DNA from: Synechococcales cyanobacterium
GTDB taxonomy: Bacteria; Cyanobacteriota; Cyanobacteriia; CAKZMO01
Direction: 5' to 3'
DNA length: 64,000 nt
Assembly: GCA_035285585.1 (NCBI GenBank)
Contig: JAYKGU010000164.1
Coordinates: 55,609-119,608 of the forward strand
In this document: piece after piece, positions 28,763 to 34,988 of the stretch
Layout of the letters: each line of letters starts with the position of its first letter
How positions within the stretch are numbered: the first letter of the stretch is position 1
Position numbers and translations under genes: made by a program
The notes under the pieces: model-generated
Told to the model about the DNA's origin: nothing
Seen by the model: only the letters and a program-made list of their open reading frames with translations
The model's database searches: none

Positions 28763-30841
28763 TCAGGCGATCGCCTGACGCTCTTGCTGCCGCATTTGGA
28801 TTTGTTCGATGCTGCCCACAGGGATGGAGGCAATCAGCTCCTGGGTGTACTCGGATTGTGGATTCTGGTAAATTTGCTCGGCGTCACCGATTTCCTCAAT
28901 CTTGCCGCGATTCATAACCATGATGCGATCGCTCATAAACTTAACTACCGCCAGGTCGTGGGAAATAAAGATGTAGGTGAGGCCAAACTCGCTCTGCAGG
29001 CCCTTCAGCAGGTTCAGCACCTGGGCCTGCACCGACACATCCAGGGCCGACACCGACTCGTCACAGATGATGAACTTAGGGTTGAGGGCCAGGGCGCGGG
29101 CGATGCAAATCCGCTGGCGCTGCCCGCCGGAAAATTCGTGGGGGTAGCGATCAATACACTTAGGGTTTAAGCCGACCCGGTCGAGCAGTTCGGCGGCCCG
29201 GATGCGCTGCTGCCGCTGACTGCCACCGACGCCATGAATCCGCATCGGCTCCATCACCGCTTCCCCAATGGTCATGCGAGGATCGAGGGAGCTGAACGGA
29301 TCCTGAAAGATAATTTGCATCTCCCGACGCAGTTGCCGGAGCTGCTTGGCTCCCAGCCGAGCTGCATTTTGAGCCACCCGGGAGGTGTCCCCTTTTCGCA
29401 AAATTCGCGGCCAGAATGATCCGGTTTCCATGCGAACAACATCGCGCCCGTCAAAGGTAATCTGACCGCTGATGGGCTGGATGAGGCGCAGCAGCGTACA
29501 GGCCAGGGTACTTTTGCCGCACCCCGACTCGCCCACCAGCCCCAGGGTTTCGCCAGGGTACACCTCAAACGAGACGCCATTGACCGCCATCAGGTAGCGC
29601 TGGGTACGCCCAAAGTTGCCCCGAACGCGAAACCCAACGTGGAGCGATCGCACCGCGAGAATGGGGGGCTGCTGGGTCAGTTCGTGCAGCCGTTTCTGGG
29701 CACTGTCGTCGGGCACCTGGATCTCAAGGTCAGGGTCTGGGCAGAGGTCAGGTGACTTTTCGCGGATGGTGATGCTGCCGTCCCTGGTGGTGGTCACCTC
29801 CATAAAGTCGGACACCGTGGGCAGACAGCGCAACCGCTGATCGGGGCGGGGGCGGCAGGCGAGTAGCCCTTTGGTGTAGGGGTGCTGGGGATTGGCGAAG
29901 ATATCGAGCACCGAGCCATGCTCGACGATTTTGCCCTGATACATGACGGCGACGGTGTCGGCGATGTCGGCAATGATGCTCAAATCGTGGGTGATAAAAA
30001 TCATGGCCATGCCCCGGCGATCGCGCAATTCTCGCAGCAAGTCGAGAATTTTGGCCTGCACGGTTACGTCCAGAGCAGTCGTTGGCTCATCGGCAATCAG
30101 CACCGAGGGATTACTGGCGATCGCCATGGCAATCATCACCCGCTGAATCTGGCCCCCCGACAGCTCGTGGGGATAGCGGTCAAGCATGGCGCGCTTGCGG
30201 TCATTGACATAGGCCTGCACTTCGGGGGTGGAGGGAGCCGCAAAGCCAGACCCGTTGGCCGATGCTCGCTCGGCTTGGGAGCGGGGCGATCGCGCCGACC
30301 CAATCAAATGTCGTTCTTGAAGTTGATCCAGATATTCTTGCTGCAATTCTTCGTCGCTGGGCAGCAGCTTCACCTCCTGCAGCAGACTGGCCGCCCGCCG
30401 CCGGGCCTCGGGTTTGGAAAGCGGCTCATGCTGGCACAGGGCTTCTACTAACTGAAACCCACAGGTATAGACGGGATTCAGGGAACTCATCGGCTCTTGA
30501 AAGATCATGGCGATGGTGCCGCCACGATGGTGCTGCATGTCCTGGGGCGGCAGTGCCAGTAAATCTACTGGTGCTGCTGGTGAGGCAGTGTGGCCATTGC
30601 TGCCGCTAGCGTGCTCTCCGTTCAGCCAGATTTCTCCCCCAGAGATCTGTCCGGGAGGACTGGGCACCAGCCCCATGATGGCAAGGGCGGTCACGGATTT
30701 ACCGGAACCCGATTCACCGACAATACCGAGGGTTTGTCCTCGCTTCACCTCAAAGGAGATGCCATCAACTGCTTGAATGACGCGATCGCGCTTCTGAAAC
30801 TGAATCTGGAGGCCACGAACGTCGAGGATAGTATCAGTCAT
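28763..30841 (-). CDS. ABC transporter ATP-binding protein, fused double ATPase (Dpp/Opp/Nik-type)
   Basis: Two complete ABC cassettes (Walker A GESGSGKS and GESGCGKS, two LSGGQ signatures, Walker B/D-loops) in 692 aa. No permease or substrate-binding gene is adjacent. Confidence 0.88.
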
Positions 30842-30964
30842 GAACCGACGGTAGAAAGGGCAAGAGGTGCTATATTAGACGGATTTTAACAGCACATTCG
30901 CTTGTAAGGAACATTGTGTAAATCCCGGTAAACTAGCCATTGGAACAGCGACCGAGACAGCGGG

Positions 30965-31654
30965 ATGACAGATTATACACAGAGGTTGCGATCGCTCATG
31001 GAGCAGGCCAACCTTCCTAGCTTTATGGAACTGGGCCGACGGGCTGAGGTGACCGAATGGCAAATCAACCAACTGCGGCAGGGAAAGGTTGAGCAGATGC
31101 GGCTGATGCCGCTGCTGAAGATTAGCGCTGCCCTGCAGGTGTCCCTGGGCGAATTGATGCAAACGTTTTCCCACAGCCCACCGTCGGAGATCGCCTTAAT
31201 TCGCTCCAGCTTAGCCGATGCAGATCCAGATCGGGCAACCCCGGCTCCTGCCGCCGATCCTTCCCTGGAACTGGACACCCTGCGGGAGGAATATCAGCGC
31301 CTCCAGGCTCGGTGCGATCGCCAGCGAGAGGAAGCCTGGGCCGACTTTCAGCAACAGGCCCTGCAAACCCTCGAATCCTGGTTACTCTACTGGCCCACCG
31401 CCGTTCAGAAAGCACAGACCAACCCCCAGATGGCAGCGGCACAACTGGTGCCCCTGGTGCGCCCTGTGGAAAAGCTGCTTCAAGAATGGCAGGTGGAGGC
31501 GATCGCCACCGTTGACGATGAAGTGGCCTACGATCCCACCCTCCATCAACTCCTGGAGGGCACGGCCCAGCCGGGGGAGCGGGTGCGGGTGCGGTATGTG
31601 GGTTATCGACAGGGCGATCGCCTGCTGCATCGGGCCAGGGTGAGTCGGGTTTAG
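30965..31654 (+). CDS. HTH (XRE-like) domain protein with a C-terminal GrpE-like domain
   Basis: N-terminus resembles Cro/C1-type HTH (LGRRAEVTEWQINQLRQGK..ISAALQVSLGEL). The C-terminal 70 aa aligns with the GrpE beta-domain end (LVPLVRPVEKLL..VEAIATVDDEVAYDPTLHQLL...GYRQGDRLLHRARVSRV versus E. coli GrpE ...[20 protein letters not shown]...GYTLNGRTIRAAMVTV). Confidence 0.6.
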   Translation: MTDYTQRLRSLMEQANLPSFMELGRRAEVTEWQINQLRQGKVEQMRLMPLLKISAALQVSLGELMQTFSHSPPSEIALIRSSLADADPDRATPAPAADPSLELDTLREEYQRLQARCDRQREEAWADFQQQALQTLESWLLYWPTAVQKAQTNPQMAAAQLVPLVRPVEKLLQEWQVEAIATVDDEVAYDPTLHQLLEGTAQPGERVRVRYVGYRQGDRLLHRARVSRV

Positions 31655-31655
31655 G

Positions 31656-31696
31656 GGATTTTGGATTTTAGGTTTTGGATTTTAGATTTTGGATTG
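31656..31696. repeat. STRR-like heptanucleotide tandem repeat (TGGATTT/GGATTTT, about 6 units)
   Basis: GGGATTT TGGATTT TAGGTTT TGGATTT TAGATTT TGGATTG. The same heptamer family occurs at 45796-45836 and 48786-48992. Confidence 0.8.
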
Positions 31697-31824: not shown

Positions 31825-32220
31825 ATGGTGTCCAGTGCCATGACGAAGGGTCAGCTAGAGCGGGAGCTGTCGCAGCGCATTCAGGCGCTTTATCGTGAAG
31901 AGCTGGAGCATCGGCCCAGCAAAGTTACCTGCCAAATCCTGGACCGGGAAGTGGCGGTCATTATGGAAGATGCCATCACCCAGGCTGAGCAGCTTTTAGC
32001 ACGGGAGGGCCGGGAGCAGCTTGCGGAGGAGGTGCGATCAGACCTGAGCGAGGTGATCCGGCCCAAAATTACTGAGATTATTCAAGAAATTCTGCAGGTC
32101 GAGGTGATTGACTTTCTGTCGGATGCGACCCTGACCACTGGACGCAGCGGCTTTATTGCTGTGTTATCAGACAGGCCGAAGTTTCGTGAGTCGAAGTCGT
32201 CCAAGCGACAGTCGCCTTAG
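31825..32220 (+). CDS. Conserved hypothetical protein (DUF2294-like), paralogue A
   Basis: 131 aa, paralogous to 32432..32818 (shared ...YREELEHRPSKVTCQILD.. / ...YEHHLNHQPHPITCQILD.. and ...ILQV.VID.L.D...TRR.G). Confidence 0.6.
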   Translation: MVSSAMTKGQLERELSQRIQALYREELEHRPSKVTCQILDREVAVIMEDAITQAEQLLAREGREQLAEEVRSDLSEVIRPKITEIIQEILQVEVIDFLSDATLTTGRSGFIAVLSDRPKFRESKSSKRQSP

Positions 32221-32261
32221 AAGCTTCTCAAAAGTCTTCAAAGACCCGATCCGAAGATCCT

Positions 32262-32430
32262 GTTAGAGCATGTCTGAAAAGTCATCTTTGAAGTAACAAA
32301 GGGCACCCGATTCCCCTGAATCCCCCTTAGAAAAAGGGACTTTGACTCCGGATCCCCCCTTATTCAAAGGAGGGCCAGGGGGGGCATTAGGTGCTCAGAA
32401 TTACAGCTAGCCACTTTTCAAACATGCTCT
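32262..32430. mobile_element. Small MITE-like element (18-bp terminal inverted repeats, about 170 bp) between the DUF2294-like paralogues
   Basis: AGAGCATGTCTGAAAAGT ... ACTTTTCAAACATGCTCT (17/18 match). The interior is a C/G-tract-rich non-coding sequence. The right arm abuts the start codon of the downstream gene. Confidence 0.45.
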
Positions 32431-32431
32431 T

Positions 32432-32818
32432 ATGCCCGACTCTGATTACCCACTTATGCCCACCCTCAATTCTGAAAATCCAGACTCGCCCTCGCTCGAA
32501 GAACAGGTGATTGCAGGAATGCGATCGCTCTACGAGCATCATCTCAACCATCAACCCCACCCCATCACCTGCCAGATCCTTGACGGCAAGATCGTCATTT
32601 TGCTGGAGGAAACGGTAACGCGCCCAGAGCAGATTCTGTTCGAGAATGGGCAAGCCCATCTGGCGGAGCAGGTGAGGTCGCATCTAGACAAAATTTTGCA
32701 CCCCCATATTAAAGAACTGGTGGAGCGCATTCTTCAGGTGCCGGTGATTGACATCTTAATCGATACGGGCTTGGATACCCGCCGCACGGGTACGATCATC
32801 ATGCTGCAGTCCAGGTAG
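32432..32818 (+). CDS. Conserved hypothetical protein (DUF2294-like), paralogue B
   Basis: 128 aa, paralogue of 31825..32220. Confidence 0.6.
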   Translation: MPDSDYPLMPTLNSENPDSPSLEEQVIAGMRSLYEHHLNHQPHPITCQILDGKIVILLEETVTRPEQILFENGQAHLAEQVRSHLDKILHPHIKELVERILQVPVIDILIDTGLDTRRTGTIIMLQSR

Positions 32819-32836: not shown

Positions 32837-34516
32837 TTACTCGGCGGGGACAGGGGGTGGAGCCGTTTCCGTGGGAGGTGGGGCCGCAGGGGGAGTTGCG
32901 GGCGCAGGGGCTGTGGTGGGAGGCTCTGCCGGGAAGGTTTCGGGGGTGTCGGTATTCGTTGTCCCAGCGTCGGTTGCTCCGGGGGCAGCTGTCCCGGCAT
33001 CAGTGGGGGAGGTTTCGGCGGGGGATGTCTCAGCCGGAGGGGTCTCAGCCGGTGATGGCTCGGCAGGGGGTGTCTCTGGTTCCGCAGGGGCAACCGGCTC
33101 CACCACTGGAGGGGTGGCGGCGTCTGGCCTGCCCAGAATACCGGGGCTGCCGTCGTCAAATACACCCGCCACGCAGGCAATCATTAATGTGGCCAGGGTA
33201 CCTACAAACAGAGCTTTCCAGCCCAGGGCAGTGATGTCGCGGCGGCGCGAGGGAATCAGGGCGGCGGTTCCGCCCACAAAGATGCCAACGGAGGCCAGAT
33301 GGGCGAAGCCAGAGAGGGCGTAGCTGACGATTAAAATGGTGCGATCGCTCACTAACCCCGCTTCCCCCAGCGCTCCCAGCTCTCGATAGGAGGGAATGGC
33401 GGTTTCCAGCAGCCGTCGCCCGATGAGCACCGAGGCTTGCCAGAGTTCGGGCCAGTCAAGGGAGACGCCCGTTAACACCGTGAGGGGCAGAAACAGGACG
33501 CCGGAAATGTTTTGCAGCGTCACCACCTGGAAGACTTCCCCCACCGGACTGGGCAATCCGGCCAGCCAGGCGAAGAACTGGTTGATCAGGGCCACCAGTC
33601 CCAGAATCAAAATCAGTACCGCCGCGATGCCCACCGCCATCCGCACCCCGTCTAAGGCTCCGGTGATTGCGGCATCCAGGGGGCTGCCCCGATCGATGGG
33701 TTCACCCGCAATCGTGTGATCGGGTTCTTTAGGGCTGTCAGAGGTAAAGTCGCGCAGGTCTTCTTCCCTGGGGATGCCGCCCGCCGTCAGGGGCACCTCG
33801 GTTTCGGGCACGAGGATTTTTGACAGCACAAAGCAGGCGGGAATGCCGATGATCGAGGCAGAAACCAGGTGGGCCAGGATATTGGGAAAGACCGGGCGCA
33901 AAAAGCTCACGTAGATGGCCAGCACCGAGGACGCGGAGGTGCCAAAGCAGCAGGCGAGGATGGCGCAGAGTTCGCTGCGGGTCATCTTGGCTAAAAAGGG
34001 CTTGACCACGATGGCGGCTTCGATGCCCACAAAAATGTTGGCCGCTCCGCTAAGGGATTCGGCCCCGCTGAGGCGCATGGTGTTGTAAAAGATCTTGGCA
34101 AAGAAATCTGTAATTAGCTGAATTACGCCGATGTTGTAAAGGAGGGCCATCAACCCGCCAAAAAAGATCACCGTGGGCAGCGCCCGGAAGGCGAAGATGT
34201 AGCCCAGGTTGATATCCGGCTCGGTGCCTGGGGACGGCACAATGTTGGGGCCAAAGACGAATCGCGCCCCCACATCAGCGGCGTCAAACACGCCATTGAG
34301 CAGGTTACTAAAAACCTGCAGGGCACCCCTGGCTCCGGGGACGGCAAACACCAGCGCCCCCAAGGCCAACTGAAGGAGAATGCCGCCCACCACCACGCGC
34401 CACGGGAAATACTTGAGACGGCGGTTTTCTGAAAAAATCCAGGCGATCGCGCACAGCCCAAACATGCCGATCAGGGAAATGGCATTCAAAATTGGGATTT
34501 CACTGAGAGCCGTCAT
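32837..34516 (-). CDS. NupC/CNT-family concentrative nucleoside transporter with a Pro/Ala/Glu/Thr-rich C-terminal tail
   Basis: Multi-TM protein with CNT family blocks (GGLMALLYNIGVIQLI, ESLSGAANIFVGIEAA, ACCFGTSASSVLAIY). A ~100-aa low-complexity PAETPP tail follows. Start is chosen at MTALSEIP; the track ORF extends 15 codons further upstream. Confidence 0.8.
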   Translation of the reverse strand: MTALSEIPILNAISLIGMFGLCAIAWIFSENRRLKYFPWRVVVGGILLQLALGALVFAVPGARGALQVFSNLLNGVFDAADVGARFVFGPNIVPSPGTEPDINLGYIFAFRALPTVIFFGGLMALLYNIGVIQLITDFFAKIFYNTMRLSGAESLSGAANIFVGIEAAIVVKPFLAKMTRSELCAILACCFGTSASSVLAIYVSFLRPVFPNILAHLVSASIIGIPACFVLSKILVPETEVPLTAGGIPREEDLRDFTSDSPKEPDHTIAGEPIDRGSPLDAAITGALDGVRMAVGIAAVLILILGLVALINQFFAWLAGLPSPVGEVFQVVTLQNISGVLFLPLTVLTGVSLDWPELWQASVLIGRRLLETAIPSYRELGALGEAGLVSDRTILIVSYALSGFAHLASVGIFVGGTAALIPSRRRDITALGWKALFVGTLATLMIACVAGVFDDGSPGILGRPDAATPPVVEPVAPAEPETPPAEPSPAETPPAETSPAETSPTDAGTAAPGATDAGTTNTDTPETFPAEPPTTAPAPATPPAAPPPTETAPPPVPAE

Positions 34517-34703
34517 CGTGGTTCTACCCCCGCACACTATGCTCAATGATGACGGTACCATAGTCCGCCTGGGTTGAATCGCTGGGGAGGGGCAAATTAT
34601 CTGCGTGGGGCAATCCGCCAGTCGCTACAATGGGCGTAGGCTTTTGTGCTGCATTTCATTCATAAGAATCCATCCCCATATCCCAATCAAACAATCAAAC
34701 TTA

Positions 34704-34988
34704 ATGATGGACGCGTTCGCCTTCAATCCGCCCGACTGGGCCCAGACCGCAACCCACGCCCAGGGGTTCTGCTGTCCCCGGTGTGGCGAACCGCCCGCCA
34801 GCGCCAAGGCGGTTTGGATTAACCGGCGATCGCCCGTTTTTGGCCTGGATCATCGCCGCAAATGGCAGGAGTTCTACCACTGCGAGTGTGGCAAAGCCTG
34901 GTGGGGCTGGAGCAGCGATCGCCCCCCCAGCGACCTCAAACCGTCGGACATGCCGGAGCGATCGCCCGACGATTTTGGTCTATTTTAA
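34704..34988 (+). CDS. Small Cys-rich hypothetical protein (putative zinc-ribbon)
   Basis: 94 aa with CCPRCG...CECG pairs. Start taken at the ATG-ATG pair (MMDAF). No homology recognised. Confidence 0.4.
   Translation: MMDAFAFNPPDWAQTATHAQGFCCPRCGEPPASAKAVWINRRSPVFGLDHRRKWQEFYHCECGKAWWGWSSDRPPSDLKPSDMPERSPDDFGLF

What the first reader, a model, noticed from the sequence alone, without database searches (positions are those of the whole stretch)
30965..31654. Unusual fusion: XRE-like helix-turn-helix N-terminus with a GrpE-like C-terminal domain
The C-terminal about 70 residues align convincingly with the beta-domain and terminal motif of the nucleotide-exchange factor GrpE (...GYRQGDRLLHRARVSRV versus GYTLNGRTIRAAMVTV, preceded by VEAIATVDDEVAYDPTLHQLL versus [20 protein letters not shown]). 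The central segment is a predicted long helix, like the GrpE stalk. The first about 65 residues, however, look like a Cro/C1-type HTH, and there is no dnaK/dnaJ nearby. A DNA-binding GrpE paralogue could be a chaperone-linked transcriptional regulator or a decoy exchange factor. I am not aware of a characterised example.
Basis: partly seen in the sequence, partly recalled or inferred. Interest (0 to 1): 0.5.

Follow-up and report, generated by a model that had tools for sequence, protein, structure and literature searches.

The report
Cyanobacterial HTH–GrpE fusion protein (All4144 family)
The gene really does encode a DNA-binding helix-turn-helix domain fused to a complete but divergent GrpE co-chaperone module, but it belongs to a large cyanobacterial family with one member (All4144 of Anabaena) already described in a 2025 preprint, so it is a genuine, only moderately novel finding.

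Summary

It is not a one-off. More than 2,000 90%-identity clusters and at least 497 species genomes, essentially all cyanobacteria, carry the same architecture. NCBI already names Nostoc members "nucleotide exchange factor GrpE". One member, All4144 of Anabaena PCC 7120, is described in a bioRxiv preprint as a dimer that modestly stimulates DnaK and binds dsDNA non-specifically through the HTH.

New here: in most genomes the gene lies directly downstream of, and co-directional with, a sulfiredoxin-Dps pair. That pair is driven by a conserved promoter carrying the published FurC/PerR box. This window lacks that context and also lacks dnaK, dnaJ and canonical grpE.

I found no operator for the HTH. 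DnaK-contact positions are only partly retained.

Verdict: new member of a known but poorly understood kind. Whether it is mainly an accessory exchange factor or a DnaK- or heat-sensing regulator remains open.

The parts
30965..31654 (+). Complete ORF (229 aa plus stop) encoding the HTH-GrpE fusion protein
   Evidence: 100% identical to an NCBI protein 'MAG: helix-turn-helix domain-containing protein [Synechococcales bacterium]' on a 129,724-bp contig. 51% identical over its full length to a Nostoc orthologue named 'nucleotide exchange factor GrpE'.
30974..31168 (+). Cro/C1 (XRE, HTH_26) DNA-binding domain, residues 4-68, five helices. The recognition helix is about residues 31-38 (EWQINQLR).
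31169..31258 (+). Linker, residues 69-98: a short helix (73-84) followed by a low-confidence, Pro/Ala-rich segment of variable length
   Evidence: pLDDT 54-62 for residues 71-100. This is the most indel-rich, unconserved part of alignment A1.
31259..31420 (+). Long helix, residues 99-152, equivalent to the GrpE stalk plus the first four-helix-bundle helix. Contains the family-invariant motif LESWLLxWPTA.
   Evidence: AF2 helix 99-152. Aligned to E. coli GrpE 55-107 and G. kaustophilus GrpE 61 onward. Conservation table.
31436..31486 (+). Second bundle helix, residues 158-174
   Evidence: AF2 helix 158-174. A158, P163, P167, L171 and W175 are invariant.
31493..31648 (+). GrpE beta-wing domain, residues 177-228, with motifs YDPxxHQLxEG and VRVRYxGYRQGD[KR]LLxRA[KR]VS
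   Evidence: AF2 strands 177-228, pLDDT 95-98. Pfam GrpE match ends at residue 227. D190-P191, H194-Q195, G213-Y214 and A224 match the canonical GrpE motif positions.
30842..30964 (.). 123-bp intergenic region shared with the divergently transcribed ABC-transporter ATPase gene (28763-30841, minus strand). Presumed promoter region; no recognisable operator.
   Evidence: No sigma-70-like promoter match. No inverted repeat apart from HIP1 sites. No FurC/PerR box anywhere in the window.
31825..32818 (+). Two tandem MpsC/DUF2294 genes (31825-32220 and 32432-32818) downstream on the same strand. A conserved neighbour pair in the closest relatives; functional link unknown.
   Evidence: Pfam MpsC E=3e-35 and 3e-26. 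The same pair follows the gene in L001 and L006 (cluster '.19').

Best explanation
The ORF encodes an orthologue of the cyanobacterial HTH-GrpE family typified by All4144 of Anabaena PCC 7120. It is an accessory, non-housekeeping GrpE paralogue whose disordered N-terminal tail has been replaced by a Cro/C1-type HTH domain on a flexible linker.

Proposed mechanism:
(i) The GrpE stalk and four-helix bundle make a parallel homodimer, which places the two HTH domains side by side so the dimer can bind double-stranded DNA.
(ii) The bundle and beta-wing keep enough of the GrpE surface to bind the DnaK nucleotide-binding domain and promote ADP/ATP exchange.
(iii) The stalk, as in other GrpE proteins, is a temperature-sensitive element.

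The result would be a stress-induced, DNA-associated DnaK co-chaperone. In most cyanobacteria it is encoded in, and probably co-expressed with, a PerR(FurC)-controlled sulfiredoxin-Dps peroxide-defence cluster.

Shown here: domain identities, fold, family conservation and synteny. Shown only in vitro, for All4144, in a preprint: dimerisation, DnaK stimulation and HTH-dependent dsDNA binding. Inferred: that this orthologue behaves the same way, and that there is a link to oxidative stress.
For: Domains and fold.

Family: 530 homologues, at least 497 species genomes, more than 2,158 clusters at E<=1e-30, with PGAP naming Nostoc members 'nucleotide exchange factor GrpE'. The window protein is 51% identical over its full length to a Nostoc orthologue.

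The GrpE half is conserved far more tightly than a mere dimerisation scaffold would need. Invariant polar residues include E137, S138, T145, N153, H194, Q195, R210 and R223, which argues for a conserved partner surface.

Canonical GrpE motif positions are retained: D-P of the DPxxH motif (its GrpEL1 equivalents D171/P172 contact Hsp70; PMC11685456), H-Q, G-Y, and E. coli R183 becomes K/R.

Experiments on All4144: glutaraldehyde-crosslinked dimer; DnaK ATPase stimulation rises from 8-fold with DnaJ alone to 11-fold; MDH refolding rises from 29% to 56%; dsDNA Kd 14 nM, lost when residues 1-67 are deleted; transcript induced 13-fold by heat, 7-fold by Cd and 4-fold by UV-B; thermal transition at 37-40 C.

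Anabaena also has other GrpE paralogues, All4473 and Alr2445, so All4144 is an extra copy.

Synteny: Dps immediately upstream and co-directional in 42 of 81 loci, Srx at position -2 in 23, identities confirmed by Pfam. The asl4146-all4145-all4144 order in Anabaena matches this. The conserved promoter upstream of srx carries the published FurC/PerR box. Only 2 of 42 dps-to-gene gaps contain a terminator-like hairpin.
Against: The biochemical evidence is a single, non-peer-reviewed preprint. The effects are small (ATPase 8-fold to 11-fold), nucleotide release was not measured directly, and the survival tests were done in E. coli.

DNA binding was reported as non-specific, yet the recognition helix is strongly conserved. 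That suggests a specific target which nobody has found.

Several positions that I recall as E. coli GrpE-DnaK contacts are changed: M174 becomes an invariant Arg, F86 becomes Glu, E107 becomes Pro. The helix alignment is uncertain, and the contact list is from memory and not verified here.

The window protein itself scores below Pfam's GrpE cutoff (21.2 vs 25.8 bits). It scores about 14 bits against NCBIfam GrpE equivalogs whose cutoffs are 167 or higher.

I could not align the All4144 sequence directly. Orthology rests on architecture, length and positional synteny in Nostocales.

This window lacks the srx-dps context and any PerR box, so the oxidative-stress link may not apply to this genome.
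Confidence: 0.6

Rival explanations
1. It is primarily a transcription factor. The GrpE-derived module serves as the dimerisation and signal-sensing domain of an XRE-type repressor. It would sense temperature through stalk unfolding, or DnaK availability through binding of free DnaK, by analogy with HspR-DnaK or sigma32-DnaK feedback. Any nucleotide-exchange activity would be vestigial.
For: The recognition helix and HTH core are highly conserved across orders: R38 and G40 invariant, S30, Q33 and L37 at 90% or more. The HTH is closest to bona fide operator-binding repressors such as 434, P22 c2, SinR, DdrO and ClgR. Some DnaK-contact positions have diverged and the family has its own invariant motif ESWLLxWPTA. 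Stimulation of DnaK in the preprint is weak, and ADP/ATP changed DNA affinity 12- to 31-fold, which hints at coupling between the two halves. A thermal transition at 37-40 C was reported. The genomic setting among stress regulators and effectors (PerR-controlled srx-dps, and a STAS/PP2C/RsbW-type partner-switching module) fits a regulator.
Against: No conserved inverted repeat or k-mer was found in the true intergenic region upstream of the gene in 67 loci; counts equal the shuffle maxima. The only conserved palindrome in the neighbourhood is the known FurC/PerR box. Only non-specific dsDNA binding has been observed. The beta-wing, which is unnecessary for dimerisation, is the best-conserved part of the protein.
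Confidence: 0.3
2. It is the housekeeping GrpE of this organism and simply carries an extra N-terminal domain.
For: NCBI's pipeline names Nostoc orthologues 'nucleotide exchange factor GrpE'.
Against: It scores 11-14 bits against NCBIfam GrpE equivalog models whose cutoffs are 167-184 bits. It is not next to dnaK or dnaJ. Anabaena has other GrpE paralogues in addition to All4144, with only 14-18% identity to it. The family is confined to cyanobacteria, whereas canonical GrpE is universal.
Confidence: 0.04
3. The GrpE resemblance is a chance or compositional artefact of a coiled-coil-rich sequence, and the C-terminus is an unrelated domain.
For: The single-sequence Pfam score is below the gathering threshold.
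Confidence: 0.01

Closest known systems
All4144 of Anabaena/Nostoc sp. PCC 7120 (UniProt Q8YPP8), HTH-GrpE protein; bioRxiv 10.1101/2025.04.14.648684
   Same: Same two-domain architecture: HTH at about residues 1-67, then a GrpE module. Similar length (214 vs 229 aa). Same family as the Nostoc orthologues, which are 51% identical to the window protein. Cyanobacterial.
   Different: In Anabaena and most other genomes the gene follows srxA (asl4146) and dps (all4145). In this window it follows a divergent ABC-ATPase gene and precedes two MpsC genes. The window protein departs from near-invariant family residues (G184 to D, Q142 to Y, P157 to A, P188 to A). I did not align the All4144 sequence itself.
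Canonical bacterial GrpE (Pfam PF01025; structures 1DKG, 3A6M, 4ANI, 8GB3)
   Same: Stalk helix, bundle helices and beta-wing in the same order. Shared motifs: DPxxH(Q), GY, and a basic residue at E. coli position R183. Dimerisation and DnaK stimulation are reported for All4144.
   Different: The N-terminal disordered tail that contacts the DnaK substrate-binding domain is replaced by an HTH domain plus linker. Identity is only about 20%. The score is below the family cutoffs. Several contact positions are changed. The gene is not linked to dnaK/dnaJ and is an extra paralogue.
XRE/Cro-C1 repressors with C-terminal oligomerisation or sensor domains (434 and P22 c2 repressors, SinR, DdrO, ClgR)
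   Different: The C-terminal module is a GrpE fold, not found in any of these. No operator is known.
Chaperone-coupled heat-shock regulators (HspR with DnaK as co-repressor; sigma32-DnaK; HrcA-GroEL) and the eukaryotic BAG1/Hap46 DNA-binding exchange factor
   Same: Conceptual analogy only: DNA binding and Hsp70 interaction combined in one regulatory circuit. The preprint itself draws the Hap46 analogy.
   Different: No sequence or fold relationship. In those systems the regulator is a chaperone client or partner rather than a fused exchange-factor homologue.

Membership tests
GrpE (Pfam PF01025 / NCBIfam GrpE equivalogs) | Sequence match to the family model above the curated cutoff | tested here: inconclusive
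   Window protein: 21.2 bits vs a 25.8 cutoff, E=2.6e-4, covering profile positions 34-162 of 165. NCBIfam equivalogs: 11-14 bits vs cutoffs of 167 or more. At family level, 32 of 35 members hit at E<=1e-3, best 7.5e-9, and the family profile hits PDB GrpE at E=5e-5. It is homologous, but it is not an equivalog.
GrpE (Pfam PF01025 / NCBIfam GrpE equivalogs) | Fold: long N-terminal helix, helices of the four-helix bundle, C-terminal beta-wing | tested here: met
GrpE (Pfam PF01025 / NCBIfam GrpE equivalogs) | Conserved DnaK-contact and motif residues (DPxxH, GY, the R183 equivalent, hydrophobic contacts) | tested here: inconclusive
   Retained: D190-P191, H194-Q195, G213-Y214, K/R219, L/M197. 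Changed: the M174 equivalent is an invariant Arg, and the F86 and E107 equivalents are Glu and Pro. The list of E. coli contact residues is from memory. Only the D-P contact is documented here, from PMC11685456.
GrpE (Pfam PF01025 / NCBIfam GrpE equivalogs) | Homodimer that binds the DnaK nucleotide-binding domain and accelerates nucleotide release | not testable with these tools
   Reported for All4144 in vitro only (dimer crosslinking, ATPase stimulation 8-fold to 11-fold, refolding 29% to 56%). Nucleotide release was not measured directly.
GrpE (Pfam PF01025 / NCBIfam GrpE equivalogs) | Genomic linkage to dnaK/dnaJ (common but not universal) | tested here: not met
   No dnaK, dnaJ or second grpE in the 64-kb window. 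None appears among the conserved neighbours in 81 loci.
Cro/C1 (XRE) HTH domain, Pfam HTH_26 PF13443 | Sequence match above the cutoff, and a five-helix fold | tested here: met
Cro/C1 (XRE) HTH domain, Pfam HTH_26 PF13443 | Sequence-specific operator binding | tested here: inconclusive
   No conserved motif upstream of the gene in 67 loci. Only non-specific dsDNA binding is reported for All4144. The recognition helix is nevertheless conserved.
Cyanobacterial HTH-GrpE (All4144-type) family | HTH_26 + linker + GrpE architecture, about 210-245 aa, full-length similarity to other members | tested here: met
   99-100% query coverage at 46-75% identity to hundreds of members. 51% identity, E=2e-72, to a Nostoc member.
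Cyanobacterial HTH-GrpE (All4144-type) family | Location downstream of the PerR-box-controlled srx-dps pair (typical, not universal) | tested here: not met
   Present in 42 of 81 loci for dps and about 30 of 81 for srx. Absent from this window: no srx, dps or FurC box.
Cyanobacterial HTH-GrpE (All4144-type) family | Direct sequence orthology to All4144 (Q8YPP8) | not tested
Orthology is inferred from its described architecture and length and from the asl4146-all4145-all4144 gene order, which matches the Nostocales synteny.

The most novel reading that the evidence does not exclude
The HTH-GrpE protein is a regulatory hinge between the Hsp70 system and DNA in the cyanobacterial peroxide and heat response. 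As part of the PerR-controlled srx-dps cluster, it would do one of two things. Either it binds specific operators as a repressor whose DNA affinity is switched by DnaK/nucleotide state or by unfolding of the GrpE stalk, a new kind of chaperone-titration or thermosensor transcription factor. Or it tethers DnaK to the nucleoid to service Dps-DNA complexes. Neither mechanism has been demonstrated for any GrpE homologue.
Probability: 0.2. Interest if true: 0.65.

Novelty: new member of a known kind. Interest (0 to 1): 0.35.

Why it matters
GrpE is regarded as a single-purpose nucleotide-exchange factor, and a 2025 review of GrpE-like factors does not mention any DNA-binding form. A conserved, cyanobacteria-wide fusion of GrpE to a repressor-type HTH implies a direct, still unexplained link between the Hsp70 cycle and DNA. 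That it usually lies in a PerR-controlled sulfiredoxin-Dps cluster points to oxidative or heat stress as the setting. The family is abundant, has tractable model organisms (Anabaena, Nostoc), and has so far been studied in only one in-vitro preprint. For this particular window, however, the gene is simply one more, somewhat divergent, member.

Tried and rejected
1. Candidate operator for the HTH. The inverted repeat TCATA-N5-TATGA appeared upstream of srx in 19 of 31 loci, and at 32 sites in 879 kb overall. It is embedded in a conserved promoter of the form TTGCAA-N17-TATGAT. I considered it as the HTH-GrpE operator. I rejected that because it matches the published FurC/PerR box of Anabaena (CAAAATCATAACGACTTTG, trained partly on srxA; PMC10406281). 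It is also absent from the window.

2. Autoregulatory motif directly upstream of the gene. An initial 8-mer enrichment was the 3' end of the dps coding sequence. In truly intergenic sequence from 67 loci, no k-mer or inverted repeat exceeded the shuffled controls.

3. Local signals in the window. There is no promoter-like site near the gene. The only terminator-like hit lies inside the second MpsC gene. There are no inverted repeats in the upstream gap other than HIP1.

4. Literature search for the GrpE hot-spot mutagenesis residues (R183, F86) returned nothing relevant. The contact list therefore stays 'from memory', except for the D-P contact.

5. AFDB fold search, intended to retrieve Q8YPP8 directly: the library is not installed.

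6. A second homology search seeded with a Nostoc orthologue, intended to surface the PCC 7120 entry by name. The top 120 hits were all other Nostoc strains, so no direct sequence link to All4144 was obtained.

7. Dimer or DnaK-complex modelling is not possible with the single-chain predictor.

Full report
**The observation**

Window 30965-31654 (+) is an intact 229-aa ORF with an ATG start. The window has 57% G+C and 119 copies of the HIP1 octamer GCGATCGC, so it is cyanobacterial. The protein is 100% identical to an NCBI entry, 'MAG: helix-turn-helix domain-containing protein [Synechococcales bacterium]', on a 129.7-kb contig.

- Pfam gives a significant Cro/C1 HTH match: HTH_26, residues 7-66, E=9.1e-10, 39.1 bits against a cutoff of 22.
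- Pfam also gives a sub-threshold but nearly full-length GrpE match: residues 103-227 on profile positions 34-162 of 165, E=2.6e-4, 21.2 bits against a cutoff of 25.8.
- NCBIfam GrpE equivalog models score only 11-14 bits against cutoffs of 167 or more. It is therefore not a canonical GrpE.

**Is the GrpE resemblance real?**

Yes, on four lines of evidence.
- A profile built from 35 family members (A1) finds the GrpE structures 4ani (E=5.2e-5) and 1dkg (E=1e-3) as its two best PDB matches, aligned from the stalk through the beta domain.
- 32 of the 35 members hit PF01025 on their own (best E=7.5e-9), and 34 of 35 hit HTH_26.
- An AlphaFold2 model (mean pLDDT 88) shows five HTH helices (4-68), a short helix (73-84), a low-confidence linker, a 54-residue helix (99-152), a second helix (158-174) and a beta domain (177-228).

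So the homology covers the complete GrpE module, not only the last 70 residues.

**It is a family, not a one-off**

- The first homology search returned 530 full-length relatives. Nearly all were cyanobacterial, and many carried both PF13443 and PF01025. JGI names some of them 'molecular chaperone GrpE / DNA-binding Xre family transcriptional regulator'.
- The exhaustive representative search found 743 representatives at E<=1e-3, of which 199 were at E<=1e-30.
They span Nostocales, Oscillatoriales, Chroococcidiopsidales, Leptolyngbyales and others.
- A search seeded with a Nostoc member gave more than 2,158 clusters at E<=1e-30. NCBI's pipeline names these 'nucleotide exchange factor GrpE' or 'XRE family transcriptional regulator'.
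- The window protein is 51% identical over its full length to a Nostoc member (E=2e-72) and 71-75% identical to its closest relatives (P0002, L001).

**A characterised member exists**

Guided by the synteny described below, I searched for 'all4144' and found a bioRxiv preprint: Sriwastaw, Rai & Rai, 2025, 10.1101/2025.04.14.648684. It describes All4144 of Anabaena PCC 7120 as a 214-aa protein with an HTH domain (residues 1-67) and a GrpE domain. The authors report the following:
- Transcript induction by heat (13-fold), Cd (7-fold) and UV-B (4-fold).
- Homodimers by crosslinking.
- Thermal transitions at about 37-40 C and above 60 C.
- Quenching of DnaK tryptophan fluorescence.
- An increase in DnaK ATPase stimulation from 8-fold (DnaJ alone) to 11-fold.
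- An increase in MDH refolding from 29% to 56%.
- dsDNA binding with Kd 14 nM, described as non-specific, abolished by deleting the HTH and enhanced 12- to 31-fold by ATP or ADP.
- Other GrpE paralogues in Anabaena (All4473 and Alr2445), 14-18% identical to All4144.

Caveats: this is a single, non-peer-reviewed study with modest effects and no direct nucleotide-release measurement. I could not obtain the All4144 sequence, so orthology rests on architecture, length and gene order. A 2025 review of GrpE-like factors does not mention HTH fusions or cyanobacteria. No other paper describing the fusion was found.

**Genomic context**

*In this window.* The gene is flanked upstream by a divergently transcribed duplicated ABC ATPase. 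Downstream on the same strand are two MpsC/DUF2294 genes, followed by a NupC-type nucleoside transporter on the opposite strand. By tblastn, the 64 kb contains no dnaK, dnaJ or canonical grpE. The query sequences were recalled from memory, and the only GrpE-like hit is the gene itself.

*Across 81 loci (80 genomes plus the window).* ORF clustering shows a strongly conserved arrangement.
- A Dps-type ferritin gene lies immediately upstream and co-directional in 42 loci, and immediately downstream in 13.
- An 87-aa ParB_N/sulfiredoxin gene lies at position -2 in 23 loci.
- A STAS protein, a response-regulator-PP2C phosphatase and an RsbW-like kinase commonly follow.
- Pfam confirms these identities.
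- This matches asl4146 (srxA) - all4145 (Dps) - all4144 in Anabaena.
- The closest relatives of the window protein share the downstream MpsC pair (L001, L006). L006 still has srx-dps upstream, so the window lineage has lost or relocated that pair. The window contains no srx or dps.

**A conserved promoter, and a rejected hypothesis**

Looking for an operator for the HTH, I found TCATA-N5-TATGA upstream of srx in 19 of 31 loci, against 2-4 in control sets. There are 32 instances in 879 kb, almost all 30-60 nt upstream of srx, or upstream of dps where srx is absent. They are embedded in ag-TTGCAA-N17-TATGAT-tta, so the palindrome overlaps the -10 element.

This is not a new operator. It matches the published FurC (PerR) box of Anabaena (CAAAATCATAACGACTTTG), which was derived in part from the srxA promoter, and FurC binds that promoter in vitro (PMC10406281). 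FurA has also been reported to bind it (PMC4788461).

The result therefore places the family's usual home in a PerR-controlled peroxide-defence cluster. Only 2 of 42 dps-to-gene gaps (median about 110 nt) contain a terminator-like hairpin. Co-transcription is therefore possible but unproven. The preprint does not discuss this neighbourhood. The window has no copy of the box.

In the truly intergenic sequence upstream of the family gene in 67 loci, no k-mer or inverted repeat exceeds the shuffled controls. An earlier apparent enrichment was dps coding sequence.

**Does the GrpE half look functional?**

Within the family, the GrpE module is more conserved than the HTH or the linker. It has many invariant polar or exposed-type residues: E137, S138, P144, T145, N153, H194, Q195, R210, G213, Y214, R223. 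That argues for a conserved binding partner rather than a bare dimerisation scaffold.

I mapped the family onto E. coli GrpE.

| E. coli GrpE position | Family equivalent | Status |
|---|---|---|
| D150-P151 | invariant D190-P191 | retained |
| H154-Q155 | invariant H194-Q195 | retained |
| G175-Y176 | invariant G213-Y214 | retained |
| R183 | K/R219 | retained |
| I157 | L/M197 | retained |
| M174 | invariant Arg | changed |
| F86 | Glu | changed |
| E107 | Pro | changed |

 The D-P pair corresponds to GrpEL1 D171/P172, which contact Hsp70 (PMC11685456). The remaining contact assignments are from my memory of the 1DKG literature, the helix alignment is uncertain, and a literature search for them failed.

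Net result: the DnaK interface is partly retained. This is compatible with DnaK binding but does not prove efficient exchange.

**Mechanism**

The best-supported picture (confidence about 0.6) is an accessory, stress-induced GrpE paralogue.
- It dimerises in parallel through the stalk and bundle.
- That presents two HTH domains on flexible, variable-length linkers to double-stranded DNA.
- It keeps a DnaK-binding beta-wing and bundle surface.
- Its stalk may act as a thermosensor.

The main rival (about 0.3) is that it is really an XRE-type transcription factor that uses the GrpE module to sense temperature or free DnaK, with exchange activity vestigial. Supporting this rival are the strongly conserved recognition helix, the weak stimulation of DnaK and the reported nucleotide dependence of DNA binding. 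Against it are the lack of any detectable operator and the tight conservation of the beta-wing.

A housekeeping-GrpE reading (0.04) and a chance-similarity reading (0.01) are effectively excluded.

**Novelty and verdict**

The fusion is real and biologically intriguing. However, it is already annotated in databases and described once experimentally, so this locus is a new, somewhat divergent member of a known but poorly understood kind.

The added value here is threefold: (i) a demonstration that the homology spans the full GrpE module; (ii) the scale and taxonomic restriction of the family; (iii) its conserved placement behind a PerR-box promoter with srx and dps, which suggests an oxidative-stress role that the preprint did not consider. 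Interest is 0.35.

Noticed in passing
Related loci, e.g. L002:745-759, L014:5021-5035, L022:4931-4945, L036:3838-3852 (32 sites in L001-L080): A whole promoter is conserved across cyanobacterial orders upstream of the sulfiredoxin(-Dps) genes: TTGCAA-N17-TATGAT, with the palindrome TCATAAYGANTATGA overlapping the -10 box. It matches the published Anabaena FurC/PerR box. The box and its position therefore appear conserved far beyond Anabaena.
   Followed up: yes
Related loci, downstream of the HTH-GrpE gene (e.g. L014:10247-11821, L018, L040, L056): A partner-switching-type module frequently follows the gene: a STAS protein, a response regulator fused to a SpoIIE/PP2C phosphatase, and an HATPase_c_2 (RsbW-like) kinase, then DUF1350. 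The STAS protein is at +1 to +3 in 27 loci. A functional link to HTH-GrpE is unknown.
   Followed up: partly
window 31656-31695: Immediately after the stop codon there is a tandem heptamer repeat, GGATTTT x 5.7 (TRF score 59). It resembles the short tandemly repeated heptamers of cyanobacteria. No terminator-like hairpin was found there.
   Followed up: no
window 31825-32220 and 32432-32818: Two tandem paralogous MpsC/DUF2294 genes (131 and 128 aa) lie downstream on the same strand. The same pair follows the HTH-GrpE gene in the closest relatives L001 and L006, so this is a lineage-specific conserved neighbourhood of unknown meaning.
   Followed up: partly
window 32837-34561 (-) and 34605-34988 (+): A NupC-type nucleoside transporter with a long Pro/Ala/Thr/Glu-rich C-terminal tail sits next to a 127-aa Cys-rich (CPxC...C) conserved hypothetical protein. 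This gene pair (clusters .15/.14) also sits near the HTH-GrpE gene in L005, L006 and L042.
   Followed up: no
L056 (JBLNEP010000190.1, labelled 'MAG: Actinomycetota bacterium'): This contig has the typical cyanobacterial Srx-Dps-HTH-GrpE-STAS-RR-kinase-DUF1350 order. It is probably a mis-binned cyanobacterial contig rather than evidence for the family outside cyanobacteria.
   Followed up: no
window 30965-31654, residues 142, 157, 184, 188, 228: The window protein departs from near-invariant family residues: Q142 to Y, P157 to A, G184 to D, P188 to A, P228 to R. Its closest relative P0002 shares Y142, A157 and A188, has N at 184 and G at 228. This marks a divergent sub-lineage that has also lost the srx-dps context.
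   Followed up: partly
window, whole (64 kb): 119 copies of the HIP1 octamer GCGATCGC at 57% G+C, a compositional signature of cyanobacteria. This is consistent with the NCBI label 'Synechococcales bacterium' for the identical protein.
   Followed up: yes
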